Assembly (NCBI GenBank): GCA_004431415.1
Contig: QPMI01000406.1
Coordinates: 1,584 to 65,583 of the forward strand
Length of the DNA stretch: 64,000 nucleotides
Direction: 5' to 3'
From: Cyanophora paradoxa CCMP329
Lineage: Eukaryota > Plantae > Glaucophyta
The notes beneath the pieces were generated by a model. That model made no database searches. It was not told where the DNA came from and saw only the letters and a program-made list of their open reading frames with translations. This document shows, one piece after another, positions 14,271 through 63,851 of the stretch. A program made the position numbers and the translations under genes. Within the stretch, counting starts at the first letter, position 1. Each line of letters opens with the position of its first letter.

Positions 14271-14317
<47 letters not shown>

Positions 14318-38803: not shown

Positions 38804-38840
<37 letters not shown>

Positions 38841-39459: not shown

Positions 39460-40685
39460 ACTTCTCCTTTGATTTCGATTTCTGATTTTCTTCAGGCTCG
39501 TAGCTTATGATCACCGTCACTGCGGCGTTTCCGGCCTTCTCTTTCTTCAAGATAGCTAGCTATATATGCTGCTATACCTGTAGCTGTGCAGGCCGCAGTT
39601 TCAAGACACCCACGATATGGCCCAACTCAGCTCTTTCTCTTCTTATTTTCGTTCAGCTAAATTTGCGCCGTCTGCCCTGACAAAGATTTGCTTTGATTTG
39701 CCCCGCCGATTATCTTGCCTTTAACTAAATCTCCGTTTCCTGCTCGTGCGATATATATATATAGCTATGTAGTCTGGGAGTTCGAATTCGGTAATTGCAT
39801 TATAATAATTGGCTTCGTACACACTAATGAATTCGTGGGATTGATTGTATACGTAGGCGTTACGAGCAGGCGTCGGCGGCGAGAGCGGCCTCGTCCGCCT
39901 CCAGCGCCAGCGCCTCGAGCGATTCCGCTGCCTCCAGCGCCTGCCGCAGCGCGGGGCGCTAGAATCAGCTGCAGGCCAGGATGCACTGCTGCAGGGCGGG
40001 GGCGCGGCCGCGGGCCGGGGCTTGCCTCGTCGTCGACGGCGGCTGCCTCGTCCTCGTCCACAGAAGCAACTGCGCAAACAGACACGTGCAGCTTAGACTT
40101 CCGAGATACTGAGACCATGCGGTCGAACAATTCGCGGTTTTTCACGAATCCGAATTACCATCGCTGTCGACACGTAGCGCTTCTTCGTAAATGGTGATTT
40201 CCGAGAAGGTCGTTTTGTTGTTCAGGACGTTGTTCGGGTTGTACCCGTTCGGGTTGTCGAACAGGAACTTGTCGAAAGAGTAGAGCTCGCTGGGTGGTCA
40301 CCCCCACCAATTGCGCGACCTTCCCGCGACCATTTTCAATAAGCACATTTTCAGCATCACGAATCTCAGTCACAAAATCACAAATTCGCACTGAGCCACA
40401 TTGTATTTTTCAAACATCTAACTCCTCCTTACTGAAACCAATCACAAAAACCTACATATAATCTTCTCTCTAATCCCTTACCATTTTCAGTAAGCCTTTA
40501 TTCCGCCTTCCGATCTCTCAGTAAGGACAGTAAGACCCTATTTTTTGCGTAATGTTCCTGATCCTTGTCGAACTGTTTTCAGTAGTCCAATTTGAAAAAT
40601 CAAGGTGAGCCCCACCGATAGGTTAAATTAACTTATATAGTGCGTATATCCCCACTTAAAGATTTCCCACTATACAAGTATAAAG

Positions 40686-41009
40686 ATGCCGGGTAATCAG
40701 CTCCCCTTACCTAAAAGTAAACTGTGCAATGTGTGCAAAGAGGTCAAGCCTGCATCGTGGTTCCCTTTGCGCAAGTGCAAGTCGGGAAATATAACATTAT
40801 ATTGGAGATGCATAGAGTGCCACCGTGACTATCAAAATGATCACTATCACAATGTCTTAAAAACGCGTCCGAAAATCGAAGTACAATCGAAGATATGCCC
40901 GGATTGCAAGATTGAGAAGCCTGCAAGCGAGTATAATAAAAAGCAAAGTACGAAGGATGGTCTCTACTATAAATGCCGACAGTGTTATAGTGAGACTCGG
41001 ACGAGCTAA
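40686..41009 (+). CDS. Small viral protein with two CxxC...CxxC zinc-ribbon repeats
   Basis: SKLCNVCKEVKPASWF...WRCIEC and SKICPDCKIEKPASEY...YKCRQC, a repeat type common in DNA-virus proteins. Confidence 0.8.
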   Translation: MPGNQLPLPKSKLCNVCKEVKPASWFPLRKCKSGNITLYWRCIECHRDYQNDHYHNVLKTRPKIEVQSKICPDCKIEKPASEYNKKQSTKDGLYYKCRQCYSETRTS

Positions 41010-41231
41010 TTTATGATTTTAAAATGAGATTTATATTTTTTAAAGCAAGTTTGTGCATGAGCAAGCATGCCGAAAATGCCCACCTGCACAAACTTGCGAG
41101 ATCAAGGTAAGCCCCATCGACAAAGTACGACGATAGACCACGTTAAAATACACTCGCGCCCCGCCCACTATGCAAGATACATGCCTTTCTTATGCATGAT
41201 CTATGAAAAATAACAATAAACCCGTCTCTCT

Positions 41232-41495
41232 TTACATAGGAGCACTCACAGTAATTTCGCTTGCCTTTCGAACAGTCCCCCGATTAAATGCTTGCTCTAC
41301 AATCGCTTCCTTTGTGAGTGGAATCGGAATTCCAGCGGCAATACACGATTTAACTTCTTTGTCCACAATCTCATCAATCGCGATTCTTGCCCTATTATGA
41401 GCCGCATTATCGATCCAATCCTGAACAGAGTAGGCACAGTATTCCATTCCAAGTTTCTCGGTTTCAGTTAAAACAACTTGATAGTTGTGCGACAT
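41232..41495 (-). CDS. 87-aa phage-like protein, probable partner of the adjacent C1q fibre
   Basis: Clean ORF beginning 7 bp after the C1q gene stop. The motif LTETEK..MEY.A...QDWIDNA..NRARIAIDEI resembles small proteins I recall beside C1q-domain genes in aquatic tailed phages (recall, not searched). Confidence 0.7.
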   Translation of the reverse strand: MSHNYQVVLTETEKLGMEYCAYSVQDWIDNAAHNRARIAIDEIVDKEVKSCIAAGIPIPLTKEAIVEQAFNRGTVRKASEITVSAPM

Positions 41496-41502
41496 TCTTT
41501 AT

Positions 41503-42498
41503 TTAGATTGTAGAAATTAATTCACCACTCCATTGACAATTCGAAGCATTAAGTCCTCCATAAACAAGATAAAGTTTAGCTGTATCACCAGCAGACATTA
41601 CTACTGAAATGTTTAAACAGAGGGGTCTAATAGAAACCACATTTAATGCCGATGCAACTGCAATACAAAATTTACCATTTGGGGCTGCATTATTTATTCG
41701 TAGATGAACAAGCGAAAGTAAATTATCTTCTTTTGTCGCGCCTGTAAAAATGAAATTGTAGTGACCAGATACAGGAGCTGTGAAAACACCATTCGAAGTA
41801 TCAATATGATTTCCATTGTTTAACCATACCTCTCCATACGAGGTTATATATATTCCTGAGGTAGTTGATAGGGTTGTGGAGATTCCAACACAAAACCGTG
41901 GATGGTTAGGAGTAGCAAGGTAAGAATCCGTTCCATTGATAGAAAGACCTTTCCAGTTGTAAGTTCCAGCGACTGCATTCGCTGTTGAATTGGTGGAAGT
42001 TTTCACAAATGTAGAAGCGATATTCTCATTATTTCGCTTGATTACTAATTCTGTATTGCCCCCAGAATCAATAGTAGTCGTTTTAACTGTCCCAAAAGAT
42101 CCAGCTGTAAGACTTCCAGTTATTGTCGCACTCCCATTCACCCCCAAGCCAGTCCCGATCCAGGCACCACCACTAACTACTTGAAAAGCCGCTGATTTCC
42201 TATCAGCCGGATTAAAAGCTGTTTTATAATCCGCTTGACCTTCATATAGATTATCTTTGGTGATTAGATCCCCTGTTTTTGCGGGTCGATTCGATACGAT
42301 CAGTTCAGTAGCTTTGACGATTCCACCAGCCTTGTCGGCTCTGAGTTCTTTGACTCTGAGTATGGAGGTCTCATTGAAAGAATCGGTTTTCGCTGTCTCA
42401 GTCGAAGGGAATGACTCGCTTAGATCATATACAGTGTGTTGCACGTTGTGGACAGCACTGGCTGATAAGGAAAACACAGGGGTAAACACAGTCGACAT
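41503..42498 (-). CDS. Fibre-like protein with C-terminal C1q/TNF-like trimeric head domain
   Basis: PRFCV...VWLNNGNHIDTSNGVFTAPVSGHYNF...MSAGDTAKLY...WSGELI follows the C1q consensus. The N-terminal AFQVVSGGAWIGTGLGVNG segment is fibre-shaft-like. Confidence 0.85.
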   Translation of the reverse strand: MSTVFTPVFSLSASAVHNVQHTVYDLSESFPSTETAKTDSFNETSILRVKELRADKAGGIVKATELIVSNRPAKTGDLITKDNLYEGQADYKTAFNPADRKSAAFQVVSGGAWIGTGLGVNGSATITGSLTAGSFGTVKTTTIDSGGNTELVIKRNNENIASTFVKTSTNSTANAVAGTYNWKGLSINGTDSYLATPNHPRFCVGISTTLSTTSGIYITSYGEVWLNNGNHIDTSNGVFTAPVSGHYNFIFTGATKEDNLLSLVHLRINNAAPNGKFCIAVASALNVVSIRPLCLNISVVMSAGDTAKLYLVYGGLNASNCQWSGELISTI

Positions 42499-42553
42499 CT
42501 TTTGATTATTCTTTATTATTACGTGAGAATATTATTATTATTACGTGAGAATA

Positions 42554-45500
42554 TTATGCTACCATCTTCCCTGTTGCTATATAACTCATTTGATAGTGGA
42601 AAAGTCCAATGCTTTCATTGTATTCTCTATTTGCCGAAATTGTTGCATGAATAGTAAATGTTGTTGTTGTGGAACTTGTGACACCATATACCAATACATA
42701 TGAACCACCATTATATCCTTGTATCAGATTGAGAACCACTTCTGGGGCTTCCGCAAATGCTTTCGGGAATGTGACAACCTGTGGAAATCCCCAATGACCC
42801 GGACCTGTGATTGTCAAAGATTTTGAGAATTTCCCTGTTTGTATATACTGGTCTTTATTGACACGCTGTTCTGAAACAAGTTTTGCGATCTTTGTATTAT
42901 CTGTTTCATCCATTGCATAATATGCTCTTGCGTAAGCATTTCCCCGACATAATAACGTTTTATCGTATATATTTGCGGAATTGTGGAAAAACCATTGTTC
43001 TAAATAAAGTGGCGCATTCGGTTGGTAAATTTGACCGGATCCCACATACATGGTGTTATTGGCTGTAATTGTATTCGCTACAAATGGGTCTAAGGTTGGG
43101 AAATCCGTGATTTCCGATTTTGTGTGAGTATGGGCGAAGTCTGTTATATTTGCCTTTGTGTGACTATGTGCGAAATCTGTGATATCTGCTTTGCTGTGTG
43201 AGTGAGGACCGACAGATGTTGAAGCTGTTGGTTTTCCGAAGATATTATCCCAATGACAGTAACCACTGTGTGAAGTTACAGCAGGGTTTTTGCTCCATCC
43301 AACAGTAATTGGACCGGGTAAATAAATTCTTCCTTTCTGTCCATGAACACCAACTTTGGTTAGTCCTTCACAATTTATTCCAACAAACTGTTTAAAATCT
43401 CTTTTAGGATTAATTGCAGGAGCATAGGCATTTACTCGTAAACGAATATAAGTATTGTTTGATGGTTCAATTCCAACAACATTAAAGTATCTACTGTCAT
43501 ACTGACACGTATAATAGATATAACATGATTTCATGTCTGTTGGAACAGTCCAATACATCTTACAGCTACTACAATCATCATCACCATCAATCCATGTGTT
43601 TGCCCAAGTGCTTGTGTCACCTACAAGTGGTTGCCCAACATAATCTCTCCAATCTCCTGTGCGGTCTGTGGAAATACCACTTGTAGCGTCAAAATCAGTT
43701 GGTGAAGTGTATGTTGGTGTATTTATCAGATCATCATAGTTTCCAGTTGTTGCCACAGTCGCAAATGTCGGGAAGTCTGTAATTTGAGACTTTGTGTGGG
43801 TATGGGCAAAATCTGTTATTTCTGACTTTGTGTGAGTGTGTGAAAAATCTGTAATCTCTGACTTTGTGTGAGTGTGTGGATCAGGTGGGAAGGTTAATGG
43901 TCGAACATTGTGAACATTGGGTAATTCAATGCGACTAATTGGAGTGTTTGGATCTAATACATATTCAGCACCAAGGTGGACAACAGGAAATGTTTGATCA
44001 TTCGGAGTAGTAACAAAGAAATTAGAAGCATGCACATCACCTGCAATTGTTCCACCTGTTAGTGGTAAATAATCATGATCGTGTGAATCAGGTGGATAGG
44101 TCGATGGGGGATTGACAATATGCTCCCAAAAATGCTTGTGAACATTGGGTAATTCAAGACGACTAAATGGGGTGTTTGGATCTAAAACATATTCAGCACC
44201 AAGGTGGACAACAGGAAATGTTTGATCATTCGGAGTGTCCACAAAGAAATTTGGAGCATGCACATCACCTGTAAGAGTCCCACCTGTAAGGGGTAAATAA
44301 TCCCCAAGAGCCGACGTTAATTCGGTATCTGTTACATAATCTTCAAGAATTGCTGCAAGTTCTGTATCATCTACATAGTTTTTGCTTTCGAGGTAATCAT
44401 CTGTAACAACACCGGAAAGGGTGGTATTGTGTAAGTTTTTAGCTGCCATTCTCTGATTGACTTCTAAGGCGCCACCTGTTGTCGTTTTTATCCATGCAAT
44501 CTCGCATTTTCCGTGATCATCTGTGGGTTGTCCCACAACAGGAAGATAGTTTACAACTTTCTCCCTTGTGAAAACTATCTTAGGTCTTGCTCCATCATAT
44601 GCACTTTGATCTGTTACATTTACTTGTATTGCTGCTGAAAAATCCGCTTCTTGTCCTATTTCTCCTGGGTGATAATTCGTAACATAGATACTGGGGAAAG
44701 TATCATTTACTCCTACATTGAAATCGCCACTATAAACTCCATTTACGATTGGATCCCGTGGTAATCTTACAGCAAGAGTTCCCACCATCGGTGTGCCTGT
44801 TTCACCTGTGAATGTCCCATTGAGATTTACGTAATGATCATTCAAAAACAGCCTTTCAGGTGTATTAATCGATTGGTAAAGTGTGACGCCATTAAAAACG
44901 TTTCCGATTGCATTCAATTGCGCAAAAACTGGCTGCTCATCTATTTCCTCCCATGGGTGCCTGTGGTTACTATTGGTAATCTCTGAATAATCATGAGTGT
45001 GTTTTCCCGGTGGGAAGGTCGATGGGGGATTTGTGATATCTTCCCATAAATGCTTATGGGCGAAATCTGTTATTTGATCTTTTGTGTGTGTGTGGTCGAA
45101 ATCTGTAATATCTGCTTTTGTGTGTTTTTGCTTTGCTAACCAATCTAAAACAACATTCGATGTCGGGTGATTTGGTAGGTTTGCTTCAATCTTCACAGTG
45201 AGATAATCGACTATTACATTACTTCCATTAATATTACTTGCCCATAGGTTACTGCTGTAAATGTTACTGGCATAAATGTTACTGGCATAAATGTTACTTG
45301 TAACTGTAAGGTTTGATGAAATTGTAAGATTAGATGAGATAACACCACCTTTGAGAGACAAGTAATCATGAGTGTGTGGATCAGGTGGGAAGGTTAATGG
45401 TCGATTGGTGATATGCTCCCACAAATGCTCGTGAGAACTGGGTGGAAACGTTAAAGGAACATCTGTGAGTTCTTTGTAGCTCACCTTCTGCTTTGGTATG

Positions 45501-46090
45501 GTGAGTTCAATTGGTGAGAAATCACCCGAAAGGCGATTTTCAGAGGTGAAATACATGAGATTATGGCTGTTAGGTAAATCGCGATCGAGTCTGCAAATCG
45601 GGGTGTTGTCGCCTAATATAAATTCGGCGCCTGTATGCACGACCGGATTTCTTTGGATATACATATTGGATGCACCTATTACAGGTGCTACAATGGGCAC
45701 ATCTGAACATACAAGGTTGCAAGTGATGGAGAAAATGGTTTTAGGGGCGAATAGATTGCAATCAAAGGTCACAGTAGCTGGATCAATAGTAGGATCGACG
45801 TTTGAACAGATCTGAAACATCCACCCACCCACACAGTTGCAATTAAGATTTCGAAAGACTGTTCCCGCCATTGCATCCACATAGCCAATCCCATTTGCTA
45901 TGTCATATATGTGACCAAACTCGTAACCAAAAATGTCATTCCACAGGTTGGAAGCCATAGCTCCCATCACATACCCTTTTAGATCTACTATCAGGTCATT
46001 GGATTCACTGGGTATATTGGCATGGGTTATATAAAAATTATTATCCAATACCGCATTCTTTATTGTCGTTTCTACTATGGGTTCAGTCAT
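42554..46090 (-). CDS. 1178-aa phage-type tail-fibre protein with HTHTKSEITDF repeats and a C-terminal H-type-lectin/gp53-like domain
   Basis: Intact ORF with many H-x-H-x-K-x-[DEQN]-I-T-D-F and HxWxxIxNxPxTFPP repeats, SNIYA repeats and YLPLTGGT motifs. The C-terminus reads IQTG...VTFPKAFAEAPEVV...STTTTFT...SYIATG. Confidence 0.9.
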   Translation of the reverse strand: MTEPIVETTIKNAVLDNNFYITHANIPSESNDLIVDLKGYVMGAMASNLWNDIFGYEFGHIYDIANGIGYVDAMAGTVFRNLNCNCVGGWMFQICSNVDPTIDPATVTFDCNLFAPKTIFSITCNLVCSDVPIVAPVIGASNMYIQRNPVVHTGAEFILGDNTPICRLDRDLPNSHNLMYFTSENRLSGDFSPIELTIPKQKVSYKELTDVPLTFPPSSHEHLWEHITNRPLTFPPDPHTHDYLSLKGGVISSNLTISSNLTVTSNIYASNIYASNIYSSNLWASNINGSNVIVDYLTVKIEANLPNHPTSNVVLDWLAKQKHTKADITDFDHTHTKDQITDFAHKHLWEDITNPPSTFPPGKHTHDYSEITNSNHRHPWEEIDEQPVFAQLNAIGNVFNGVTLYQSINTPERLFLNDHYVNLNGTFTGETGTPMVGTLAVRLPRDPIVNGVYSGDFNVGVNDTFPSIYVTNYHPGEIGQEADFSAAIQVNVTDQSAYDGARPKIVFTREKVVNYLPVVGQPTDDHGKCEIAWIKTTTGGALEVNQRMAAKNLHNTTLSGVVTDDYLESKNYVDDTELAAILEDYVTDTELTSALGDYLPLTGGTLTGDVHAPNFFVDTPNDQTFPVVHLGAEYVLDPNTPFSRLELPNVHKHFWEHIVNPPSTYPPDSHDHDYLPLTGGTIAGDVHASNFFVTTPNDQTFPVVHLGAEYVLDPNTPISRIELPNVHNVRPLTFPPDPHTHTKSEITDFSHTHTKSEITDFAHTHTKSQITDFPTFATVATTGNYDDLINTPTYTSPTDFDATSGISTDRTGDWRDYVGQPLVGDTSTWANTWIDGDDDCSSCKMYWTVPTDMKSCYIYYTCQYDSRYFNVVGIEPSNNTYIRLRVNAYAPAINPKRDFKQFVGINCEGLTKVGVHGQKGRIYLPGPITVGWSKNPAVTSHSGYCHWDNIFGKPTASTSVGPHSHSKADITDFAHSHTKANITDFAHTHTKSEITDFPTLDPFVANTITANNTMYVGSGQIYQPNAPLYLEQWFFHNSANIYDKTLLCRGNAYARAYYAMDETDNTKIAKLVSEQRVNKDQYIQTGKFSKSLTITGPGHWGFPQVVTFPKAFAEAPEVVLNLIQGYNGGSYVLVYGVTSSTTTTFTIHATISANREYNESIGLFHYQMSYIATGKMVA

Positions 46091-46127
46091 TATACTCTAT
46101 TATGGAATACTACAAAAATTAAGGTTG

Positions 46128-49100
46128 TTACATAACGTTTGGAACATGTTCATATATTCTCCCTTCTCGCTGTGCCATTTCCGCCATAAAGTCTCTATCA
46201 TTGTTCATCGTTTGCTCTGCCAATTCTTGTGCTCGTGATTTTTTGGGTGCTGCCCTATTTGCTGGTGGTCGGTCAGTCCTCACAACACTAAGACCATGCC
46301 CCTCGGCTGATCTCACCTCTAAGCCCACATCTCCTTCGGCTGTTTGGGTCACATTAAGCTCTGGTGTGGAGTATTTATTACCTGCTCCTGCAATGGTTCT
46401 GTCTATGCATGCACAACACAAAGCTCGGAATTTGTATGCAAGCACAAGCCCAAGAGCACCGAGAATCGGCAAGAGAATCATAAGCACTAACGTTCCTGGA
46501 TCTGTTCCCGGTGCCCCGACTGGATTTGTAGGATTCGTGGGATTATTAGGTGGTGTGTTTGGATCTGGATTAGTTGTAGGGGGATCTTGTGAATCGGGAT
46601 CTGGGTTAGGCTGGTTCGGATTTGGATCGTTTGGTGGCGGTTCCGTCGACCCTGCTAATGAGGTTGGCGCTGTGTATGCATTCGCAAACACGATTGGAGC
46701 CGTCGCTGGATTTCCTGTGGAGGATCCTGAGATTGCACCATAGGTATCTGCGAGATACTTGTATAATTCCTGTGTCACAGGTGGATTGCTCACAGATCGA
46801 CACACCCAAATATTGCATGTGGTATCATATACTGTATCCCTGATAAAAGGCGGTAGAGCCGTCCCACTGAATGACTCAAAGAGTCCATTTCGCGATAGCA
46901 ACCTATGTCCTGTATCACAATTTCCACCCTCAAAATATTTGGTAGCCGAAATCGCACCTTGCACATAAATATTGCATGTCGAATGCAATCCAATGTTATT
47001 TAGGTTAGGAGTGTATCTGTCATCAAGCCGGACAGTGCACACCCATGGGGAAGCGGTTTTTATATATTTCTTATCGCCCACCTCGATTACATCTGTATTT
47101 GGGTGGCTGTCAAGCTGAGTCCAAACAGCATCATACCTGAAAGTGTAATAAACTAAGAGACCATCAGTAGAGGATGTGAAAGCAAAGAAGGTCATAAAGT
47201 CCGTGGATCCAAAGAAGTCAGCATTGGTCGATGTTAGGGTGACTCTGGGATAGCTCATGTTGACAGTCTCAGAAGGATATGGAATATATGAGGTGTAATT
47301 ACGATTGAAAAGATAATAGTGAAATCCATCTGAGACATTCGAGTGAGTGGGCAAGGTGACTGTTAAGGTCTTACTGCGATCCTCAAACGTTTTCTGTATG
47401 ACAATGTTGCAAGTATTAATATATCGAGAATCGAAAAAGTAATTATTTGTGACTCTATTATCGATCAAAGTCGCATTGGTTCCATTAAACACGAAATTCT
47501 GCCCATTGATCCTCGTAGTGTGAATGTCTGTAACATCGAGAGGATACCTTATTTTTAATCGATCTTCGGGGTCAAATCGCGGAATAGTTCCTGTTGCCTT
47601 CCAACTGATAGTAAAGGGAGGAGCAAGGGACACTGCTGGGATAACAGAGAGATTAAATTTCGAAAAATACAACCCAACAGGGTATGATGTCAGAGCATAT
47701 GTCACTGTTGCATTTCCTACAAGTGTAAAGCCGGTGGTTGTTATGTTAGTTGCAACAAATGGGGAGTAGCCGGCTGGTGCATTTTGAAGTGATGTAGCTG
47801 ACCCATCATTGACCACATACAAATTCGTGTCTGTTATTTCAATAGTAGGAGGGGAAACAAATGGTGTCTCAAATGTGAAATTAAAATTCGCTGGAACCCC
47901 TGCAAGATATCTATATGTTGTTGCTGATATCTCGGATGCCTGGAATACTTTGCTTCCACTCCGCACTACATTACTTGTGTCTTTCACATTGTGGTATGAG
48001 ATGCTGGGAGTTGGGGAGAGCACCAACGAAATAGCATCTGGTAAATCAGACTTTGTTATATACAGTTCTCTGAGAAACTCCTTTCTAAAAGGGGCGGTCA
48101 GTTCTCCAATAGTAGCCGATGATCCTGCGACCACAATATTACAGGTGTTTGCACTCAAAGAGTAAACTGTGTTCCACCTTAAAGAATTCGCCCCAAGATC
48201 GAAATTCTGTGAGAAGGGCACGATATTGCTACCTTGTAAATCTCGGTAAACCTTTACTCTGGGTTTGCTATCGAATACAGGGCTAATGTAATTGATGTTA
48301 AGAGTGAAACTAATAGTAGCTTCGGAACTCAATGAGTTGTTTCGGATGATAAGTAAATTGTATGTCTCGTTAATGACAAACGAAACCTGAAACCCTGTGG
48401 AGGTGACATTTTGGATAAATGCTTTATTCGATTCATTATTGTTATAGATAGGATTATAATAAGTAGTGTGATCCACCAATGAAACAGTGGGTATAGTCGT
48501 CTCGAAACCTGTGACACCCAACTGATCCCAAGTGAATGTATATGTAGGTTTGCCTACATAAGAGACATAGACCCCATTTGCGAGCTGCTGAGGGTATCCC
48601 TCGACAGTGTAGGTCTCAGTTTGCGAAACCGAGCGGGAAAGGTTACTATTATAGTCGGTGTAGCTGATCAGTGCATTACCATTGGTAAGAATCTGATTAG
48701 GTCGGAGTGAGTGATTTAATGGAAGGATTAAATTGGAGGCAAACATGGAAACTCCATGCACCTCTGACCATCTCAGATTCGATAAACCAACTCGGTATGT
48801 GTTGTCAGTCGCGGGTATATGTTCCTTTTCGACAGAATATGGGCTAAGGTAATTGCAAGCGCTCCATCTGCTGCAAACAGAGCATTAATTTCTGATTGCA
48901 AAGCCGCGATTTCGGTTGTGTGGGTCGTGAGGGTTCCATCCTGGCTGGAATCTTTGGTGTTCTTGCTCCTTTCAAACTCCAAAAACGCCTTTACGATGTC
49001 CTTGCCTAAAAGATCGTTTATATTGTCTCTGGTTATGTGAACATGGTCTGTTCTCAGTGCCTGTTTCTCTGTGGTAAAAGCCGGAATTTCTTCTGCAAAT

Positions 49101-49849: not shown

Positions 49850-49891
49850 CTCTTTATAAACAAAGAAGATATATAAGAAGTATATAAGATA

Positions 49892-52227: not shown

Positions 52228-52243
52228 AATCTATTATAGTAAG

Positions 52244-53170: not shown

Positions 53171-53217
53171 GCCCTGTAAATTATTTTCTGATCCCAAAGA
53201 TAAGAGAAGAAACGCTC

Positions 53218-54528: not shown

Positions 54529-54580
54529 ATTCTCATTACCACATTCAGTCTTATTTTTCTATTGTTTTTATAGTGAAAGA

Positions 54581-55426: not shown

Positions 55427-55448
55427 TCAAATGTAAGAGAAGATAATC

Positions 55449-56129: not shown

Positions 56130-56333
56130 TGACTGTGAATATCCGCAAGGCAAAGCTGAACCCGCCCGTATTTAGAGCGGGTCTTTATGTGGACTCCCTT
56201 GCAATAGGGACAGGTCGGCTCCATAAACAGCATTATAAGTTCGACCAATTCGTAGGGGAACACACGAGCAAGTAAAGCCCTCATTCCCTTTTATTTTCTC
56301 CGATATTTAATACGTTGCGTCCTTGTAGGATCG

Positions 56334-56768
56334 ATGAATTTCATCACACAATGCATTGAAATGTTTCAGCTTCATGTCGTGTCTAATTGCCACAGTCCTT
56401 GCTGTGACACAACCGTAGAGGTTAATATTTCTGACGACGAGAATGGAGGTAGGCGCCTTTCTGTATATTCTAACCACAGCGACAATCACAACCACCCACG
56501 ATCTCGATCGCCCTCGCCTGTGCCCGCGGCTATGAGTTCTAATATCGAAACCGCTCAGATAGAGGACGTGCATGTAGAGCATATTAGAAGGCGCTCATGT
56601 CCTGAATTTGTAGAAGGTCATTTGCGCGCTGACTCCCCTTATCCGATGTATAGATTGGATCAAATGCCATTAGGCGACGATGAAAATGTAACGAACCCTT
56701 ATGTTTATCCTCAGCAACCTTATGTATATCCTCAGCAACAAGAAAGAACCGTCTGGAACGGTTATTGA
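56334..56768 (+). CDS. Hypothetical viral protein (144 aa) with RSRSPSP and PYVYPQQ repeats
   Basis: Intact ORF preceded by the shared TTATTTTCTCCG motif. Confidence 0.6.
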   Translation: MNFITQCIEMFQLHVVSNCHSPCCDTTVEVNISDDENGGRRLSVYSNHSDNHNHPRSRSPSPVPAAMSSNIETAQIEDVHVEHIRRRSCPEFVEGHLRADSPYPMYRLDQMPLGDDENVTNPYVYPQQPYVYPQQQERTVWNGY

Positions 56769-56870
56769 GCGGTGAATTTCGGTGGCGCTTGTATCGAGCC
56801 AAGGGCAAAAATGAAGGTTTCGGTAAAAGGTATATAAGGGCAAGGGAAATAATACAGAGTGACAAAAAAC

Positions 56871-56887
56871 TATTTTCTCCGGTTATA
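56871..56887 (+). promoter_or_regulatory. Shared viral upstream motif TATTTTCTCCGGTTATA
   Basis: The same core occurs at 56291, 57431 and 62719, with a variant at 53178, each shortly before an ATG. Confidence 0.7.
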
Positions 56888-56891
56888 GTAA

Positions 56892-57383
56892 ATGGCGAAA
56901 CCCAAGATTTCAAACCAAGAGGCAATGGCGGCACAGCAAGAAAAGCGCAGACCAGGGCGACCGAAGAAGGTGATCACAGAAGAGGAGAAAGCGGAGAGAT
57001 TAAGACTAAAACGCGAGAAAGATGCAGAGCGGCAGCGAAACAAGCATCAGAGACAAAAGCAAGAGCGATTAGCCGCCGGAGAGGCTACTATATTCACACC
57101 GGAACAGCTACAAAAGATCGCAATTCGTAAACAGCAGCGATACCAAGACGATGAAGAGTATCGGGAGAAAATCCGAGAGAAGGCACGTGAATACCAACGA
57201 AGGAAAAGAGCGGAACGCAAGCTGAATCCGCCCGCTAACCTCAGCCGCAAAAGCCCGCTGGAAGACCCCGAAAGCATGTCGTCGAGAACGCAAAAAATTC
57301 GTAGCGGAAAGTACCACACGATGCAAAAAATGATTAATTTTTTACCTCCATTTTATTCCCCGTATCGGTCAAAAAGCACTTAA
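56892..57383 (+). CDS. Basic coiled-coil protein with an AT-hook-like RRPGRPKK motif (putative DNA-binding)
   Basis: The ORF directly follows the shared upstream motif and has a GRP core and long K/R/E helices. The 3' end is possibly frameshifted. Confidence 0.7.
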   Translation: MAKPKISNQEAMAAQQEKRRPGRPKKVITEEEKAERLRLKREKDAERQRNKHQRQKQERLAAGEATIFTPEQLQKIAIRKQQRYQDDEEYREKIREKAREYQRRKRAERKLNPPANLSRKSPLEDPESMSSRTQKIRSGKYHTMQKMINFLPPFYSPYRSKST

Positions 57384-57430
57384 AGATTTGGCGACAAGGG
57401 TATGAAAAGGAGAATTTGGTAGATTGCGCC

Positions 57431-57452
57431 GAAATTATTTTCTCCGGTTATT
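57431..57452 (+). promoter_or_regulatory. Shared viral upstream motif GAAATTATTTTCTCCGGTTATT before the PolB gene
   Basis: An 18-nt exact match to the copy at ~62719; the ATG is at 57470. Confidence 0.75.
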
Positions 57453-57469
57453 TAAAAGAACTAATAGAG

Positions 57470-60400
57470 ATGCCGCGCGCAACCAACAGAATCGCTAACA
57501 ATGTTCGGGATGAAATTATCGGATACATTATGCAGGGATTGAGTCAGGATTTGCTAACCGAAGAACAGGCGCATTGGGCGATGCACAACACAATGAATCG
57601 GAAGCCCAAGCTCCAAACGCTGATCGACATTCGGATACTCTGAATGGCATCATTAATCCCGCGTTTTCCGCAGGGCAGAGCGGAAAGAAAGCGGCCGCTC
57701 GCACCCAAGTTAAATAGAAAAGCAAAAGCAAAAAGAACAAGAGGCGAAGCGTTTACAGCGCTTCGATCGGCAAACGAAACAGAAAACGGCGCGAAAAGAA
57801 GCGAAAACTCGAAGCGAAGCAGCAGAGAGGTAAACTAAAAGCGGTAGAGGATGCGATTAAACGCACTTTTCTCCGTCATCTTCGAACCTAATGTTCATGA
57901 GTCGTATGATGGGGACGAAATTCACGAGATGGAATCGAGGCGATGATCGATGGGCGACGAAGCGTGTCGAAGATGACGGAGCCGGTGCTATCCTGGCAAT
58001 CGCTATGCGTTTCTGGATGAGGAGCTAATGGACAGCATGCGATGCACCGCGATTATGAGCAAATTCACAGACTACACATTAAATCCAAACGCGTCTGAGT
58101 TCGAAGATATTATTGAGCTTCCCAAATCATCGACATCTAACGCTTGCGGCTACGATATGATCATCTCCACATGGGAGCGTCCATTAAGAAGTGTCAGGAG
58201 GCGCCAAAACCGCGATATACTGACTTAACTATGTCCTACGACGGTCTCTATAAATTCTTTCACGGTCGCGAACGCACACCTGGCGACTCTCTGGCTCTCA
58301 CGCTCCGCCATATCGAGAAATTCTGTAAGAGAATCAGACAGGCTTCCGCGTCTTTGATGTCGACGGAAAGTTAATACACAAATTCGCGGCGGAATCAATT
58401 AACAAAAACATCTTTCCCGCAATATTCACTTTATGATTCACAACAAGCACATCTATATATTCAACGATAACATCAAGTCGCTCGAAATGCGCATGGCAAA
58501 GATGGAGGTCGAAGAGCTCGATAATCATGTTCCTAAGTCGACTCTTCGTTAGCACTCTATAAATTCCGACGTGTCTTACTCACGATATCTTCGCGCACAC
58601 ATCCAAGGATTTGTTAAAGATCACGCAACTAAACTATCGCCCGACGAGCGCAGTTTCATCCGCATTCTTTATACTGGCGCGAAGGTCTGGAAGGTCTTCT
58701 ATTTACGTTCCTGAAAATGCGATATGAGCCCGCTGTGAAGCTAACACCATCGAAACAGATCGACAGCATCACATTCAAAGCCAATGGCTCGATGTTCTCT
58801 ATCAAAGATCCACGCACAACAGACCACTTTATTGAGCAAGATTTCGAACAGAGGAGTATTATAATAAGGTCTGTGAAATCGGAAGGGATTCCGGAGTCGC
58901 TTCTAAATGCGACGAATATCTCACATTACAGCCGAACATGCGCGAAATTCTCACGCACTACAAGCGATCCGCACTAAGTGGCTTTTCTATAGCCGAACCC
59001 GAAAGCCACCTACACAGCTGTCGATATGGCGAAGTGCTACCTTCGATACTGAAAGGCATGCAATATCTTCCGAAATACAATGTTTGATGACTTCGTTCCC
59101 TTTAAAGCGGGAAGCGATATTCTCGAATACGCGATCTACTACGTGCGTGTCGTTGCGTTTGAGAGAGAGCAAGCACTTTCGCGACGACGAGGATATTGAT
59201 TATGATGCCGCCATGTCTCGCAAGATTGATGGAATCGAAATTATACTGGATCGCGCATTTTCGTGAGTGGTCGCTGTTATAATTTCATGACAGGCTACAC
59301 TCTCTCCATGCATTGGGCGGACGTAAAGGACAAGATAGAGATTTCGCGGTCGCGGAGCCTTCGCATTTGGTGCCCAATACGTCGATCGCTGAGATGCAAA
59401 AGTGCTGTCAAGCGACATTCAAACCACAGATAAGAAGCACATTTTAGTGAAAGAGATCGGAATGCTCGGCAAATTCCAAGACTCGCAAACATCCACGAAA
59501 ATGTTCTACAACCGTGCCGAGGCTGAGAGGTTCGCCAAGAATGCGGAGGAACAGTAGAGGTGTTTACTTTCAATCCTAAGAATTCGAAACGTGTCAAACT
59601 CTTAGCGAATTCGAAGGTCACATCTATTTCGTTAAGATCAGCTCCCACCGCGAGCTCGTTAACGGATTCCTTCCTATCCACTTTCATATTTACGTCGTAC
59701 CGTGCTAATATGTTTGCGCAATACAAGCGCCTGACAGCGCGCGGCACAAGGTTGCCGGGATCAGAACGGACTGTCTATATATCGAAGTTCATGGACAAGT
59801 AAGAAAGAGTTCGACCGAAATGCGTTTGAGAACATGGGCAAATTCAGCTATATTCCGGGAAAAGATGCCCTGAGAATGCACTCCGCCACCACGGGTGTAA
59901 CTCTCGAATTTCAGGATCCCGAGACACTCATTAACCGGTTCTCGCTGAGGGACGAATTTAATCCGGAGTGCTTTAATTGGGTTGCGGAGCTCATAATCGT
60001 ATGCTTGTCCTTGCTGACATGCCCGGAAGTGGAAAGTCGACCTCGGTATTAATGTTTGCCTCTCAAAAGTCAAATTGCTTAGTATTTGCCCTATAACAAC
60101 AGTGCGCAGAGCTGAGGGACTCTCTCAAAGTCCGCGGAATCGAGAATATTACCGTTCGTACTTTGTATAATGTTCTCGGATCCGTGTCTCAAATGATCGA
60201 CCTACGAAGAGGCTATGAGCGAAAAAGACCAGAGGGCGTTGTCTCGAGTTCAGCCACATTATGTTCGACGAGATATTGCGTATTCTGTAAAGATCTCGCT
60301 AAGATCAAGTCGTTTATCGATCGCTATCCGGATATCAAATATTTGGCTAATGGCGATACCTATCAGAACGAACCGATTAATGATGAGCTATCGTTTCTGA

Positions 60401-61340
60401 TCGCAAGGGCTACTATAAGCGCGCTGTGCAGAGCATGTTCCCTAACGTCCTGAGTCTACGCATTAACAGCGGCACAAGAAGGAGACAGACGTGAATTAAT
60501 TCGGGCGATTAAAGAGGATCTCTTCGAGAACGGACTGAAGCCGCACAGATTATCTCGAAATACGGTTGCCGACAATTAATGATCTAACGCTATTCCCGAC
60601 GGCTACTTTGGCATCGCTTACAGAAACGAAATGACCTTAGCCTACAACAAACTGATGCACGATAGACGCAAAGTAAATATCCAACCGTAGAGGTCAATGG
60701 ATCAAATTCTACAAGGGTTTGGAAGTCGTTTGCGCAGGTATCTACGCATTTCGCGGTCTGAGGGAGTCTATAACGCATACACGAATTACACCTATCGAAT
60801 CACCAAATCACCAAGCAAATGGTCACATTAACTGACGTTTTCGATGGCGTCACGTTCGAGGTTCCGTGCGCGATGTTAGAACATTTTTCTCTCCCTTATG
60901 CAGGAACAGGTCATTCACGCAAGGTCTCACACTTGATTCGGGCATTGTCATTTGTGAGGCACGTTCCGCTATAACCACTCGCGAATGGTTCTATACGCTC
61001 TCACTCGTAACCGCGATCTGTCCACTGTGCTGATTTATACACGATTCACAAGTTCCAAGGAAAGAGCGACTACATCGAATATCTGAAAACGAAGATCCGC
61101 GGATATAAATGCCAGGATCAGCGTGCCGGGCGCGATTTCACGAGCGGATTATATTACGCCGGAGTGGATATTAGAGCGCAAGAAGCAACAGAAGGGCGCC
61201 TGTGCGATCTGTTCCTTCCGATTCGATTGAGCCGCAAGATCCGAATTATAGGCTCGTCGTGGATCGCATCAAATAAGCGCCCACATCTTAAAGACAATTG
61301 TCAACTCGCGCATCACGGGTGCAATTGCAGCAAAAAATAA
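57470..61340 (+). pseudogene. Family B DNA polymerase + SF1 (PIF1/RecD-like) helicase + HNH-like domain, probably one fused gene, heavily frameshifted
   Basis: PolB motif A AVDMAKCY (59017-59040), motif B-like KKHILVKEIGMLGK (~59432) and motif C IRTDCLY (~59760). Helicase ADMPGSGKST (~60013), HIMFDEI (~60255), GDTYQ (~60352), PYAGTGHS.QGLT (~60895) and WFYT.LTR (~60986). C-terminal CAIC...VDRI..K.PHLKDNCQL.H.GCN ends at stop 61340. Confidence 0.85.
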
Positions 61341-61483
61341 CAGGGTTAATTAGAAGAATGTCACGGATCGTCAGAAGGGTAGCGGGCGAGGAACGGAGAC
61401 CACCATTCTACTATCGCGGTTCCTGAACTGAGCAAGTCCCCAAAAAATCACAAAACGCCAAGCAAAATCAAATTTATTAGGAG

Positions 61484-62571
61484 ATGTTCCTTTTAGCATT
61501 GCTAACCCGTCCTCTAAGATCGTGCGACGCATGTATGACCGAAGACAGGTTTAAGAACCCGTCCGCGATATACGAAGAGCTGAGAAAAGAGGACAAGACC
61601 CTCACATTAAAGAAGTGCAAGATGTCGCAGCGAAACAAGAATTTATGCAGATCAACAAGAAGCCCCCGCACCGACCCAAACAGCTTTTATTCCCATCACA
61701 GCCCCGCCGTGGTGCTACCAAGCGATTCATCTTTTATCTTCATATGGCAGCTATAATTCCGGCTACATTGCAGTCCTTACTCTCATCGAGATGACAGCCG
61801 AAAAGCATATGCCAAGAAGTTAAAGAAAAGAGGGCGCAAGTGTTGCCGCCGCTTTTGCGGAGATGCTTACAGAGCTCCGGCTCGATGATTCGATTGGAGA
61901 CAGATAACGGCTCAGAATTCATCGCGAAGGAGTTTCAGGAGGTCGTTAAAAGCAATGGAATAGAGCACCGCTTTAAACAGGTCGGAGATCACACTTCGCT
62001 GGGAATAATGAATCGCTTTCATTTGACCTAAAAACGATGATAAACAATTACTGTGTCGCATATAATACTGTGCGGTTTATGGACAAGCTGGACGACTTCG
62101 TTTTCAATTATAATAACACCATTCACAGAACCATAGGAATGAAACCCGCGATGTTAAGCTTTCTGATATGGAGCGATCCGAGCGGCTATTATTTCAAGGA
62201 AGAACACAATCGTAAAGGATATATTCAGCGACTTTAAGCCGGGTTCCACGTCGTGTATTATTGCCAAGATCAAAGTTTGATAAAGGAGCACCAAAGGTAT
62301 AGCCGAGAGGTCTACAAAATTGCGGGAAGGAGAGGAAACGCGATAGAGGTGCAAGATGCAGCGGGAACGTAATGCCGAAGCTTTTTAAGCCGCACGAATT
62401 GCAATCATTACAGAGGTCGAGCTGTGGTGGCCATCAGGCAACGCTATTTTAGCGGCTGATGTAGAGGCAGCTTCGATCCGGCAGGTTCAAAAAGAAGGCA
62501 TAGATGTCGCCGCAAGTGTTCCAAAGGCGCATTATTGGAAGATCGCGCAGAAAAGACAAAGAGGGCGCTGA
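61484..62571 (+). pseudogene. Retroviral-type (rve) integrase, frameshifted
   Basis: YQAD (first Asp), SRKAYA, LETDNGSEF (second Asp), GIMNRFHLT, YNNTIHRTIGMKPA, then an FDKG..YSREVYKI C-terminal segment typical of Polinton integrases. Confidence 0.9.
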
Positions 62572-62718
62572 GAGAGCTCGCTAAATTAACGATCGCGGAA
62601 CTGAGAAGCTCTCAGAGGTAAACAGTCAGCGGTGGTATAAATCATTCAAGAATCAGAGCGCAAGCTACACAGCCCCTACTACGCGCATTCTTCGGTCATC
62701 TCGTTCATAACAAACCCC

Positions 62719-62745
62719 GAAATTATTTTCTCCGGTAAATATAAA
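62719..62745 (+). promoter_or_regulatory. Shared viral upstream motif GAAATTATTTTCTCCGGTAAATATAAA before the DUF5710 gene
   Basis: Matches the 57431 copy; the ATG is at 62750. Confidence 0.75.
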
Positions 62746-62749
62746 AGAG

Positions 62750-63060
62750 ATGGAGGGTGAAAAGCATTTGTTGATATTCCGTTGATAAAAAAGACGTTGC
62801 GAAATCCCTCGGTGGAAAGTGGGATCGTGAGAATTCATGCTGGTATGTCATGAAGAAAGATCACCCTATGCTCTCAGTTTCAAAACTCTAAGTATGAGCA
62901 AGTGTATCAAAGAAACGTGAAGGTTTACCTCGATATTCCTTATGAATTTAAGGATCAAGCGAAGGCTGAGAAAGCCCGCTGGGATCCCGTTATGAAATCC
63001 TGGTATGTCATGGGTCTCGATCACCCGCTAATGGGCAAGTTTCCGATCAAGGAGCATTAA
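62750..63060 (+). CDS. Tandem DUF5710-like domain protein (frameshifted)
   Basis: Two copies: FVDIP..KKDVAKSLGGKWDRENSCWYV and VYLDIPYEFKDQAKAEKARWDPVMKSWYV. The gene is not in the ORF track because of indels. Confidence 0.8.
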
Positions 63061-63084
63061 ATATATCTGTCGTTTTTTCATTTT

Positions 63085-63474
63085 TTATGAAATTGGGAAC
63101 CTTTGCTCGACCTGTAAGTCCCACTTTCGAACTTTCAGCCTTTCCTGTATGAGTTCGTTAATGTCCCGTGCTATACCCATTGTCTTCGCTTCGGCATTTG
63201 AGCCGCATGTAAAGATATCGATCGCTAATAGCCCCTGGTCGCTATAAGAGTGAGCTGTGGCATGCGACTCATCTAATAGAAAGCCAATCGCGAAACCGGG
63301 AGGGGAAATAGAGCCATCGAAAATGCAGTGTGCTGGTGCACGATGCGCATATTGCGATCTGTGATATATTGCGATAGGTTCGCTGTGATCCACTCGGCGC
63401 ATGCCTCCGGGGACTCGTAACGGGTCGGTTATATAGTCGAGCATAACGTGGTAGCCGCGGTATCGGGAATCCAT
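63085..63474 (-). CDS. speD: Pyruvoyl-dependent S-adenosylmethionine decarboxylase family proenzyme (prokaryotic class 1B, SpeD/SpeH-like)
   Basis: GYHVMLD...F....PPGF....LLDESHATAHSY...G.LAIDIFTCG, with the conserved E-S-H self-cleavage site and TCG motif. Confidence 0.9.
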   Translation of the reverse strand: MDSRYRGYHVMLDYITDPLRVPGGMRRVDHSEPIAIYHRSQYAHRAPAHCIFDGSISPPGFAIGFLLDESHATAHSYSDQGLLAIDIFTCGSNAEAKTMGIARDINELIQERLKVRKWDLQVEQRFPIS

Positions 63475-63851
63475 TATTATTTAAGTCGATATTTTTGTGA
63501 GCTATGTGGTTTCGTAGCCGCCAAATCGCGCCCTTTGCGAATCAGACCGCGCCACTTCGTAGTAGTGTAGAACTACTCTATACGCGCGCGATGCAAAGTA
63601 TGACTAGTGGAGCCCTCCGGGAACGCGCGCCGGCGCTCAGAATGTAGCGGACACCTCCGTTTTCGGGCACTTGTGCAGAAATCGAGGTCGCTCTTCGCTC
63701 CACGGTGGGCTAAGCTAGTCAAGCTAACCATCATGCCCGGAATCAAGTTGTGAGCACATAGCAATTGAGAGCGCGCCGAGATCGGCTTCCTGTCCAAAGT
63801 TATGCGGAAACGAAAGGGGGTCTCCGCGAAGTCGCGATCGCGATGTTATCG

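What the first reader, a model, noticed from the sequence alone, without database searches (positions are those of the whole stretch)
40150..63580. Near-complete endogenous Polinton-like virus with an atypical gene set in a primary-plastid alga genome
Seen: a ~23-kb intronless island carrying MCP, two pentons, A32 ATPase, PolB/helicase/HNH, rve integrase, lipase, three fibre genes and a decarboxylase, embedded in GC-rich intron-dense DNA. Established: this core defines Polinton-like viruses and virophage relatives. Inference: the host is glaucophyte-like (MiaB transit peptide MAAF...), a lineage for which I know of few characterised viruses. The combination of phage-type fibres, double penton, no recognisable cysteine protease and a metabolic gene may define an undescribed PLV group.
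Basis: partly seen in the sequence, partly recalled or inferred. Interest (0 to 1): 0.88.

Follow-up and report, generated by a model that had tools for sequence, protein, structure and literature searches.

The report
Catalogued Polinton-like virus in glaucophyte alga
A multi-copy Polinton-like virus genome is likely integrated in the DNA of an alga, likely Cyanophora paradoxa; near-identical capsid genes and the same gene types are already in published catalogues, so it is a known, though apparently still unnamed, virus family rather than a new system.

Summary
The island is real. An intronless, 45% GC block starts at about 40,285 (not 40,150) and runs off the window's right end. It encodes a double-jelly-roll capsid, two penton-like genes, an A32 ATPase, a PolB/SF1-helicase/HNH frame, an rve integrase, patatin, fibre-like proteins and AdoMetDC. 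I found no protease. In two DNA runs a single-copy host contig reaches the junction without differences, and element contigs are about 35 times deeper. The dense frameshifts at 57-64 kb look like assembly errors. The novelty claim mostly fails. Bellas 2023 (Table S2) prints Cyanophora paradoxa capsids near-identical to this one and counts 366 in that genome. Bulzu 2025 (Table S6) tabulates 156 glaucophyte elements: protease 0, AdoMetDC 66, lipase 89, rve 85. It also names the PTR/H-lectin fibre and the patatin-discoidin fusion. What is left is a divergent capsid lineage with no name that I found (6 hits among 1.84 billion proteins; PBCV-1-like fold), copy-variable fibre tips, a predicted membrane-anchored lectin-like protein and a promoter-like motif. 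Most likely it is a methylation-silenced provirus that depends on a giant virus (inferred, about 45%).

The parts
40285..64000 (.). Endogenous Polinton-like virus; left end about 40,285, right end beyond the window (at least 23.7 kb)
   Evidence: GC 0.447 vs 0.69; contig depth steps from 41-100 to thousands in this area and stays high to 64,000; two X17 contigs align from 40,285 with unlike flanks
39538..40284 (.). Single-copy host flank; holds a 41-codon open frame (minus strand) cut off by the junction and a candidate 50-nt GT-AG intron at 40,158-40,109, possibly an interrupted host gene (inferred)
   Evidence: contig 39,538-40,314 with 0 differences in X1 and X8; frame and intron; no Pfam match
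40686..41009 (+). 107-aa protein with two CxxC zinc-finger repeats like the N-termini of endonuclease VII/HNH proteins; skipped in some copies
   Evidence: PHROG E 9e-12 to 3e-9; joint 40,621-41,116 in X1 and X8
41232..41495 (-). 87-aa protein, unassigned
   Evidence: only a sub-cut-off hit
41503..42498 (-). 331-aa fibre-like protein with a C-terminal C1q head; this head is rare among copies
   Evidence: Pfam C1q E 7e-6; contig 41,519-41,785 with 0 differences at single-copy depth (95 and 58), and joints that skip the head
42554..46090 (-). 1,178-aa fibre with phage-tail (PTR/HxH) repeats and a C-terminal H-type lectin-like domain
   Evidence: Pfam PTR E 0.003 and H_lectin E 0.015, both below cut-off; PHROG tail E 3e-14; internal repeats; same architecture named for a C. 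paradoxa PLV
46128..48746 (-). 872-aa protein with an H-lectin-like domain, a proline-rich stalk and one predicted transmembrane helix (752-770)
   Evidence: Pfam H_lectin E 9e-4, below cut-off; 19-residue hydropathy 2.64, the highest of 16 ORFs tested
48773..49678 (-). 301-aa protein sharing 15-nt 'SNI' repeats with the long fibre; likely a small fibre (inferred)
   Evidence: repeat family D4; no family hit
49892..51385 (+). Patatin phospholipase (GGGSRG, GTSTG, DGC) with a C-terminal domain that looks discoidin-like by recalled motif only
   Evidence: Pfam E 4e-22; motifs; discoidin not confirmed by Pfam, PDB or PHROG
51382..52227 (-). Penton-like protein 1 (281 aa), inferred
   Evidence: 29% identity over 94 aa to penton 2, E 1e-7; no PDB hit; fold failed
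52244..53170 (+). Penton (minor capsid) 2 (308 aa)
   Evidence: PBCV-1 P1 (6ncl_a6) E 4e-4; DUF5901 E 1e-3, below cut-off
53219..54530 (+). Double-jelly-roll major capsid protein; frame broken near 53,270, 54,255 and 54,490 in this sequence
   Evidence: near-identical C. paradoxa MCPs in Bellas 2023 Table S2
54581..55426 (+). A32-like packaging ATPase
   Evidence: Pfam Pox_A32 E 2e-10; Walker A AKTNCGKS and Walker B ILIVLDD; 75%-identical homologue
55449..57383 (+). Four small ORFs (73, 95, 144, 163 aa); three are 18-27% K+R and may bind DNA (inferred)
57470..61350 (+). Family B polymerase, SF1 helicase and HNH/EndoVII motifs in one heavily frameshifted stretch; likely one fused replicase (inferred)
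   Evidence: DMAKCY 59,023; IGMLGK about 59,450; RTDCLY 59,760; GSGKST 60,025; FDEI about 60,250; GDTYQ 60,352; QGLT 60,920; CxxC and H/N motifs at 61,180-61,330; EndoVII PHROG E 0.02 only
61484..62620 (+). rve-type integrase, frameshifted
   Evidence: Pfam rve E 6e-8; TDNGSEF, NRFH and HRTIGMKP motifs
62750..63060 (+). DUF5710 protein, frameshifted
   Evidence: Pfam E 9e-12
63085..63474 (-). S-adenosylmethionine decarboxylase proenzyme with the ESH cleavage site and the FTCG motif
   Evidence: Pfam E 2e-9; PDB 2iii E 1e-4
53182..62734 (+). Promoter-like motif TATTTTCT[CG] at 53,182, 56,292, 56,871, 57,436 and 62,724
   Evidence: 5 of 5 sites in the element lie about 20-41 nt before an ATG; the 11-mer occurs 4 times vs 0.02 in 300 simulations; motif chosen after seeing it
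13437..15960 (-). Host MiaB-like gene (part) with a MAAF N-terminus; host marker, not part of the element
   Evidence: UPF0004 E 2e-6 and Radical_SAM E 4e-5; N-terminal Phe is typical of Cyanophora transit peptides (PMC4510345 abstract)

Best explanation
This is one copy, likely chromosomally integrated, of a high-copy Polinton-like virus family of a glaucophyte alga, likely Cyanophora paradoxa; it carries capsid, packaging, integrase and predicted polymerase-helicase genes and is predicted to sit silent until a co-infecting giant virus transcribes it. Shown: the gene set, the double-jelly-roll fold (through a 64% homologue), single-copy host DNA running up to the junction, many related copies, and near-identity of the MCP to published C. 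paradoxa MCPs. Inferred from known PLVs: a linear genome with terminal inverted repeats is copied by the PolB/SF1-helicase fusion, inserted by the rve integrase and pumped by the A32 ATPase into a capsid of MCP and two pentons that matures without a protease; fibres and the patatin lipase mediate attachment and entry. Inferred: CpG methylation keeps copies silent, and AdoMetDC supplies aminopropyl donor for polyamines or drains SAM. The frameshifts at 57-64 kb are likely errors of the window's assembly (about 80%). Odds for the way of life: giant-virus-dependent 0.45, autonomous nuclear virus 0.25, spread only inside the cell 0.2, other 0.1. The confidence below is for identity and integration.
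For: Gene set. Capsid: Foldseek E 3e-16 to iridovirus and 6e-16 to PBCV-1; VIA Z 21-23 (rmsd 3.5-4.0, 316-325 aligned) to PBCV-1 against Z 13-14 (rmsd 4.6-4.9) to mavirus and Sputnik. Host: the second-best MCP relative is a named C. paradoxa protein (35%); Bellas 2023 Table S2 rows 100 and 102 differ from the window's MCP at only a few residues, read by eye. Integration: in 2 of 2 DNA runs laid, host contigs match with 0 differences at depth 41-100 up to 40,314; element contigs are about 35 times deeper (26-58). Frameshifts: among the 16 contig pieces shown, 23 gaps per kb at 57-61 kb against 0.8 at 46-56 kb, with similar substitution rates (8 vs 11 per kb); no long single-copy contig carrying the broken version is listed. 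Known gene content. Silencing and helper: C. paradoxa methylates repeats and viral genes and carries giant-virus remnants (preprint passages); PgVV, a PLV with lipase and fibre in its particles, depends on a giant virus.
Against: The junction contig reaches only 30 letters into the element, one short of the tool's 31-letter bridging rule; these are contigs, not reads, and the runs may be one campaign or the window's own source. Depth is not a copy number. Only 16 of 3,414 pieces were shown, and contigs drop rare variants. The right end, inverted repeats and target-site duplication are not in the window. PolB and helicase rest on motifs, not on family hits. The MCP model is moderate (pLDDT 61). 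Nothing here shows a particle or a helper virus; the mimivirus early motif AAAATTGA is absent (0 sites), the TATTTTCTCCG motif is not tied to any giant virus, and the element carries its own replicase.
Confidence: 0.85

Rival explanations
1. It is an autonomous nuclear virus, or a self-synthesising transposon that spreads inside the cell, with no giant-virus helper.
For: It has its own polymerase-helicase motifs and integrase; TsV was isolated as a nuclear lytic PLV; no AAAATTGA site; tens of near-identical copies fit in-cell spread.
Against: Most characterised algal PLV isolates depend on giant viruses; the host carries giant-virus remnants; intact and copy-variable fibre genes point to an extracellular stage.
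Confidence: 0.4
2. This copy is a decayed relic whose replication and integration genes are truly pseudogenised.
For: Frames at 57.4-62.7 kb are broken every few dozen codons and the MCP at three places; contigs drop rare variants.
Against: Gaps outnumber substitutions 46 to 16 in the five pieces shown there, against 4 to 52 in the eleven at 46-56 kb; at 7 of 12 listed gap sites all contig depth in X1 disagrees with the window; a copy-specific variant at 41,519-41,785 was kept as its own contig; Bellas 2023 reports such breaks as assembly artefacts.
Confidence: 0.2
3. It belongs to the Nucleocytoviricota-related small viruses (Mriya/Zora/Zephyr side) rather than to the Aquintoviricetes-type PLVs.
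For: Top fold matches are NCLDV capsids; published HHpred hits are iridovirus, ascovirus and POV01 MCPs; PLV MCP profiles found only 2 of 156 glaucophyte elements; Zephyr viruses have PolB-SF1 fusions and lipases, Zora has rve.
Against: No HUH or VLTF family hit among 47 frames; I saw no named PLV capsid among the listed fold rows, so the ranking cannot separate these groups; no tree was built.
Confidence: 0.35
4. The island is a contaminant or free virus joined to algal DNA by misassembly.
For: Sharp GC step; the junction contig is one letter short of the bridging rule; the right half is error-rich.
Against: The same 777-nt junction contig with 0 differences in 2 of 2 DNA runs; 14 of 24 listed runs, all with one organism label, hold about 80% of the host-plus-virus words; 366 MCPs are reported in the C. 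paradoxa genome.
Confidence: 0.04

Closest known systems
Cyanophora paradoxa endogenous viral elements (Bellas et al. 2023, PMC10120064, Tables S2 and S4; Bulzu et al. 2025, PMC12220804, Table S6 and fibre section)
   Same: MCP near-identical to Table S2 rows 100 and 102. Group counts of 156: A32 139, minor capsid 97, protease 0, rve 85, lipase 89, pPolB 49, SF1 helicase 34, HNH_3 40, AdoMetDC 66. PTR-PTR-H_lectin fibre and discoidin-patatin fusion named in the text.
   Different: Those papers give counts, not a map, name or placement of this family. The two pentons, the membrane-anchored 872-aa protein, the variable C1q tip and the promoter-like motif are not mentioned in the parts I read. 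I could not tell whether this is the 272- or the 94-member cluster.
Gezel-14T / PgVV group (Aquintoviricetes; bioRxiv 10.1101/2022.07.28.501842)
   Same: MCP, penton and ATPase core; lipase and phage-like fibre in the virion; algal host.
   Different: PgVV has a tyrosine recombinase, TVpol, Tlr6f and AAAATTGA promoters; this element has rve, PolB/SF1 motifs, two pentons, AdoMetDC and no AAAATTGA.
Maverick-Polintons and Gosseviruses (Polintoviricetes)
   Same: pPolB motifs with rve; a phospholipase is common in Gosseviruses and group 2.
   Different: No cysteine protease found here, and none in 156 glaucophyte elements; the published C. paradoxa clusters lie outside the named Maverick and GKS1 columns.
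Tlr1 of Tetrahymena and other PolB-SF1 helicase fusions
   Same: Polymerase followed by a C-terminal SF1 helicase and a nuclease domain.
   Different: Tlr1 ends in GIY-YIG, here HNH/EndoVII-like; the Oxyrrhis fusion has the opposite order. Fusion here is inferred across frameshifts.
Virophages (mavirus, Sputnik; Virophaviricetes)
   Same: Size, rve and PolB as in mavirus (recalled), integration in a protist genome.
   Different: Capsid fold is closer to PBCV-1 (Z 21-23) than to mavirus or Sputnik (Z 13-14); no protease; virophage MCP profiles hit 0 of 156.

Membership tests
Polinton-like viruses (operational sense) | Double-jelly-roll major capsid protein | tested here: met
   Model of the 64% homologue P0001; Foldseek E 3e-16; Z 23.4, rmsd 3.5, 316 aligned
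Polinton-like viruses (operational sense) | Minor capsid (penton) | tested here: met
   52,244-53,170 matches PBCV-1 P1, E 4e-4 over 43 residues; the second penton only by pairwise similarity
Polinton-like viruses (operational sense) | A32-like packaging ATPase | tested here: met
   Pfam PF04665 above cut-off
Polinton-like viruses (operational sense) | Genome of about 15-45 kb | tested here: inconclusive
   At least 23.7 kb; right end outside the window
Polinton-like viruses (operational sense) | Terminal inverted repeats and target-site duplication | not testable with these tools
   No partner of the left end in the window; no genome held
C. paradoxa EVE family of Bellas 2023 / Bulzu 2025 | MCP in the published C. 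paradoxa set | tested here: met
   Near-identical by eye to Table S2 rows 100 and 102; 35% to row 106 = P0003
C. paradoxa EVE family of Bellas 2023 / Bulzu 2025 | Gene types of the glaucophyte row of Table S6 | tested here: met
   A32, penton, rve, lipase, AdoMetDC, PolB, SF1 and HNH present, protease not found; the table gives group counts, not co-occurrence per element
Polintoviricetes (Mavericks, Gosseviruses) | pPolB and rve integrase | tested here: met
   rve by Pfam; PolB by motifs only; protein priming not tested
Polintoviricetes (Mavericks, Gosseviruses) | Adenain-like cysteine protease | tested here: inconclusive
   No hit among 47 frames in Pfam or 16 in PHROGs; element incomplete; 0 of 156 in the published table
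Polintoviricetes (Mavericks, Gosseviruses) | MCP/ATPase in the Polinton clade | not tested
   No reference set here; published clusters fall in the unnamed 'Iterative HMM searches' columns
Aquintoviricetes | Morphogenetic module without protease | tested here: inconclusive
   Fits what is in the window; right end missing
Aquintoviricetes | MCP/ATPase phylogenetic placement | not tested
   Too few relatives recovered for a tree
Virophaviricetes (virophages) | Virophage-type MCP | tested here: not met
   Mavirus and Sputnik listed at Z 13.3-13.9, well below PBCV-1 at 21-23; model pLDDT 61
Mriyaviruses and NCLDV-like PLVs | NCLDV-like capsid module | tested here: inconclusive
   NCLDV capsids rank first, but no named PLV capsid was seen among the rows for contrast
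Mriyaviruses and NCLDV-like PLVs | HUH endonuclease, VLTF2/3, Mriya48 | tested here: inconclusive
   No such Pfam hit; no Mriya48 profile available; four small ORFs unassigned

The most novel reading that the evidence does not exclude
The Cyanophora elements are a deep, glaucophyte-restricted lineage with an NCLDV-like capsid that fits none of the named PLV groups. They act as resident parasites of a glaucophyte giant virus, swap receptor-binding fibre tips among their chromosomal copies, place a lectin-like protein in a membrane, and use AdoMetDC to drain SAM and loosen host methylation silencing.
Probability: 0.15. Interest if true: 0.65.

Novelty: already known. Interest (0 to 1): 0.3.

Why it matters
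As a discovery it matters little: the family's capsids and gene types are in the supplements of two papers. It still has some use. Glaucophytes are an early branch of the primary-plastid algae, Bellas 2023 estimates that these elements make up about 7% of the C. paradoxa genome, and PLV capsid profiles missed 154 of 156 of them. Placing this capsid could add a branch between PLVs and giant viruses. The shared upstream motif gives a sequence-level test for a helper virus, and the variable fibre tips give a handle on how copies diversify.

Tried and rejected
No whole genome is held, so copies and the right end could not be read. Viral-contig scans with P0001, the ATPase, P0005 and P0010 and a metagenome-contig scan with alignment A1 found no relative; these reach close relatives only. 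Alignment A3 was too divergent to scan with. The Atlas held neither P0001 nor P0010. Penton 2 had no homologue in the word search. The single-sequence fold of penton 1 failed (pLDDT 32) and was not searched. The discoidin reading of the patatin C-terminus was not confirmed. PolB and helicase fragments gave no significant family hit; the ATPase had no PDB sequence hit. No RNA holder is listed on record; the two guessed-RNA runs laid nothing on 46,200-64,000, which is not used as evidence. No inverted repeat joins the two ends of the island. AAAATTGA has 0 sites and the 6 TCCGGA sites are not before starts. No CpG depletion in the element (o/e 1.03 and 1.38). Earlier scan findings: none. Searches for a paper naming the group found none: and term look-ups. 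Supplements of the 2026 bioRxiv framework (HMM names, tables) are closed and may place this family.

Full report
Verdict. The claim of an atypical, undescribed gene set mostly fails, because the capsid sequences and the gene types of this family are already in published supplements. I score it as already known, interest 0.3.

1. The island. GC falls from 0.69 (1-40,284) to 0.447 (40,285-64,000). Long intronless frames cover 93% of 40,686-57,383. Of 47 frames scanned against Pfam, hits above the curated cut-off were C1q, patatin, Pox_A32, rve, DUF5710 and AdoMet_dc; PTR, H_lectin and DUF5901 were below cut-off. PHROGs added tail-protein hits for the 1,178-aa ORF and endonuclease VII-type zinc fingers for the 107-aa ORF. 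From 57.4 to 62.7 kb the frames are shattered, yet polymerase B motifs A, B and C, SF1 helicase motifs I, II, III and V, an HNH/EndoVII-like end and integrase motifs follow in the expected order (motif names are recalled). No fragment gave a significant PolB or helicase family hit, so this assignment is motif-level.

2. Capsid module. The MCP (53,219-54,530) is broken at three places. Its 344-aa open part has one close homologue, P0001 (64%). A profile of the two found only 6 proteins among 1.84 billion representatives. I folded P0001 with five relatives (pLDDT 61). The model matches double-jelly-roll capsids: Foldseek E 3e-16 to an iridovirus and 6e-16 to PBCV-1; VIA-align Z 21-23 to PBCV-1, 21 to faustovirus and 13-14 to mavirus and Sputnik. 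It is therefore not a virophage-type capsid. I saw no named PLV capsid among the rows, so the ranking cannot decide between Aquintoviricetes and the NCLDV-related PLVs. Penton 2 matches PBCV-1 P1 (E 4e-4). Penton 1 is related to penton 2 (E 1e-7), but its own fold failed. No protease was found, with the caveat that the element is incomplete.

3. Ends, integration, copy number. Fourteen of 24 listed runs, all with one organism label, hold about 80% of the words of 36,200-46,190; they may be one campaign or the window's own source. I laid two of them and two of the ten guessed-RNA runs. Host contigs match with 0 differences at depth 41-100 over 36,200-38,795, 38,851-39,566 and 39,538-40,314; beyond that depth rises to thousands and stays so to 64,000. 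The last host contig stops where a 31-letter graph would branch if a repeat began at 40,285, and two X17 contigs align from 40,285 with unlike flanks. The left end is thus about 40,285. The junction contig overlaps the element by 30 letters, one short of the tool's bridging rule, so integration is strongly suggested, not proven by reads. The longest element contigs are about 35 times deeper than host contigs (26-58), roughly tens of copies at 90% identity or more, though depth is not a copy number. No inverted partner of the left end lies in the window: the right end is outside it.

4. The frameshifts. Of 3,414 contig pieces, 16 were shown. The five at 57-61 kb differ from the window by 46 gaps and 16 substitutions in 1,963 nt; the eleven at 46-56 kb by 4 gaps and 52 substitutions in 4,745 nt. 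At 7 of the 12 gap sites listed (175 in all), all X1 depth disagrees with the window. A truly gap-ridden copy should appear as its own long single-copy contig, as the copy-specific stretch at 41,519-41,785 does; none is listed. I put assembly error at about 80%. Bellas 2023 describes the same artefact in multi-copy viral elements.

5. Host. The second-best MCP relative is a named Cyanophora paradoxa protein (35% identity). Bellas 2023 Table S2 prints C. paradoxa MCPs that, read by eye, differ from the window's at one residue in about 220 (row 100, before its own frame break) and at a handful of residues (row 102). A MiaB-like gene at 13.4-16.0 kb starts MAAF, fitting the N-terminal phenylalanine of Cyanophora transit peptides. 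The host is very likely C. paradoxa.

6. What is already in print. Bellas 2023 counts 366 MCPs in C. paradoxa in two clusters (272 and 94) that fall in the unnamed 'Iterative HMM searches' columns, about 7% of the genome. Bulzu 2025 Table S6 lists 156 glaucophyte elements: A32 139, minor capsid 97, all nine protease columns 0, rve 85, lipase 89, pPolB (PF03175) 49, SF1 helicase 34, HNH_3 40, AdoMetDC 66, and PLV-MCP profile hits only 2 (columns matched by counting, consistent with the percentage row). Its text names a PTR-PTR-H_lectin fibre in a C. paradoxa PLV and discoidin fused to patatin in glaucophyte PLVs. AdoMetDC also occurs in cryptophyte PLVs (45 of 706 in Rhodomonas lacustris). Protease loss is typical of Aquintoviricetes, two pentons occur in Trimcap B, and PolB-SF1 fusions are known. 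I found no paper that names or places the Cyanophora lineage (searches; no mention of Cyanophora in the main text of two 2026 preprints), but those preprints' supplements are closed and may do so.

7. How it most likely works. By analogy with characterised PLVs (inferred): a linear genome with terminal repeats is copied by the PolB-helicase, integrated by rve, and packaged by the ATPase into a capsid of MCP and two pentons. Fibres bind the cell and the patatin helps entry, as the lipase and fibre found in PgVV particles are thought to. C. paradoxa methylates repeats and viral genes and carries giant-virus remnants, so silence by methylation and activation by a giant virus is my preferred reading (0.45), ahead of an autonomous nuclear virus (0.25) or in-cell spread only (0.2). 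For a shared transcription signal: TATTTTCT[CG] occurs 5 times in the element, each about 20-41 nt before an ATG, including those of the MCP and the polymerase (motif picked after seeing it; 4 copies of the 11-mer against 0.02 expected). Against a mimivirus-type helper: no AAAATTGA. The AdoMetDC keeps its cleavage site; feeding polyamine synthesis or draining SAM are untested ideas.

8. Details not seen in the papers read. The C1q tip of the small fibre is rare among copies and skipped by several joints; the zinc-finger ORF is optional. The 872-aa protein is predicted to be membrane-anchored. The insertion seems to cut a host reading frame. These are refinements, not a new kind of system.

9. 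What I saw of each paper. PMC12220804: outline, results parts 1-2 of 5, sections 11, 13 (part 1 of 2) and 33, passages, supplement 1 part 33 and search rows, one row of supplement 2. PMC10120064: text parts 2-3 of 7, passages, rows of Tables S1, S2 and S4. bioRxiv 2026.06.19.733378: parts 1-3 of 5 and a term search. bioRxiv 2026.10.13.758929, 2022.07.28.501842, 2025.04.15.648976, PMC12721341 and PMC8502044: passages. PMC4510345: abstract. PMC6704402: a term search (0 occurrences of virus, viral or polinton). No tree was built, because too few relatives were recovered.

Noticed in passing
window 46,128-48,746 (-): The 872-aa 'fibre' ends in a proline-rich stalk, a strongly hydrophobic 19-residue segment (752-770) and a short tail, like a type I membrane protein; unusual beside soluble fibres.
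   Followed up: partly
window 41,503-42,060: The C1q head of the small fibre is at about single-copy depth while the rest of the element is at thousands, and several joints skip it: fibre tips vary between copies.
   Followed up: partly
window 40,621-41,116: Some copies skip 494 nt holding the 107-aa zinc-finger ORF.
   Followed up: no
window 40,109-40,284 (-): The insertion appears to cut a host reading frame with a candidate 50-nt intron; the protein is unidentified.
   Followed up: partly
window 42,184-42,520 and 40,285-40,558: Both guessed-RNA runs hold contigs of a more divergent copy of the small-fibre N-terminus and of the left end; RNA status is a guess, so this is a weak hint only.
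   Followed up: no
window 60,960-62,304: A contig joint skips 1,343 nt (helicase end, HNH and integrase core) in both DNA runs, 26 letters on the short side: possibly a deleted, non-autonomous variant.
   Followed up: no
window 63,580-64,000: High-depth, more GC-rich DNA with short GGACTC repeats at about 63,858-63,893; part of the element or of an adjacent repeat.
   Followed up: no
P0004-P0007, P0010: Distant MCP relatives (21-27% identity to P0001) come from ENA/Logan contigs of 1-15.5 kb; their hosts and gene content are unknown.
   Followed up: partly
window about 17,000-31,200 (+): A large intron-rich host gene with Ephrin_rec_like repeats and a weak Laminin G hit.
   Followed up: no
window 37,640-39,837: A spliced host gene covered by contigs of both guessed-RNA runs ends about 450 nt from the junction.
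   Followed up: no
literature, PMC8502044: Starrett 2021 already noted adintovirus-like PolB/integrase relatives in C. paradoxa contigs (one passage).
   Followed up: no
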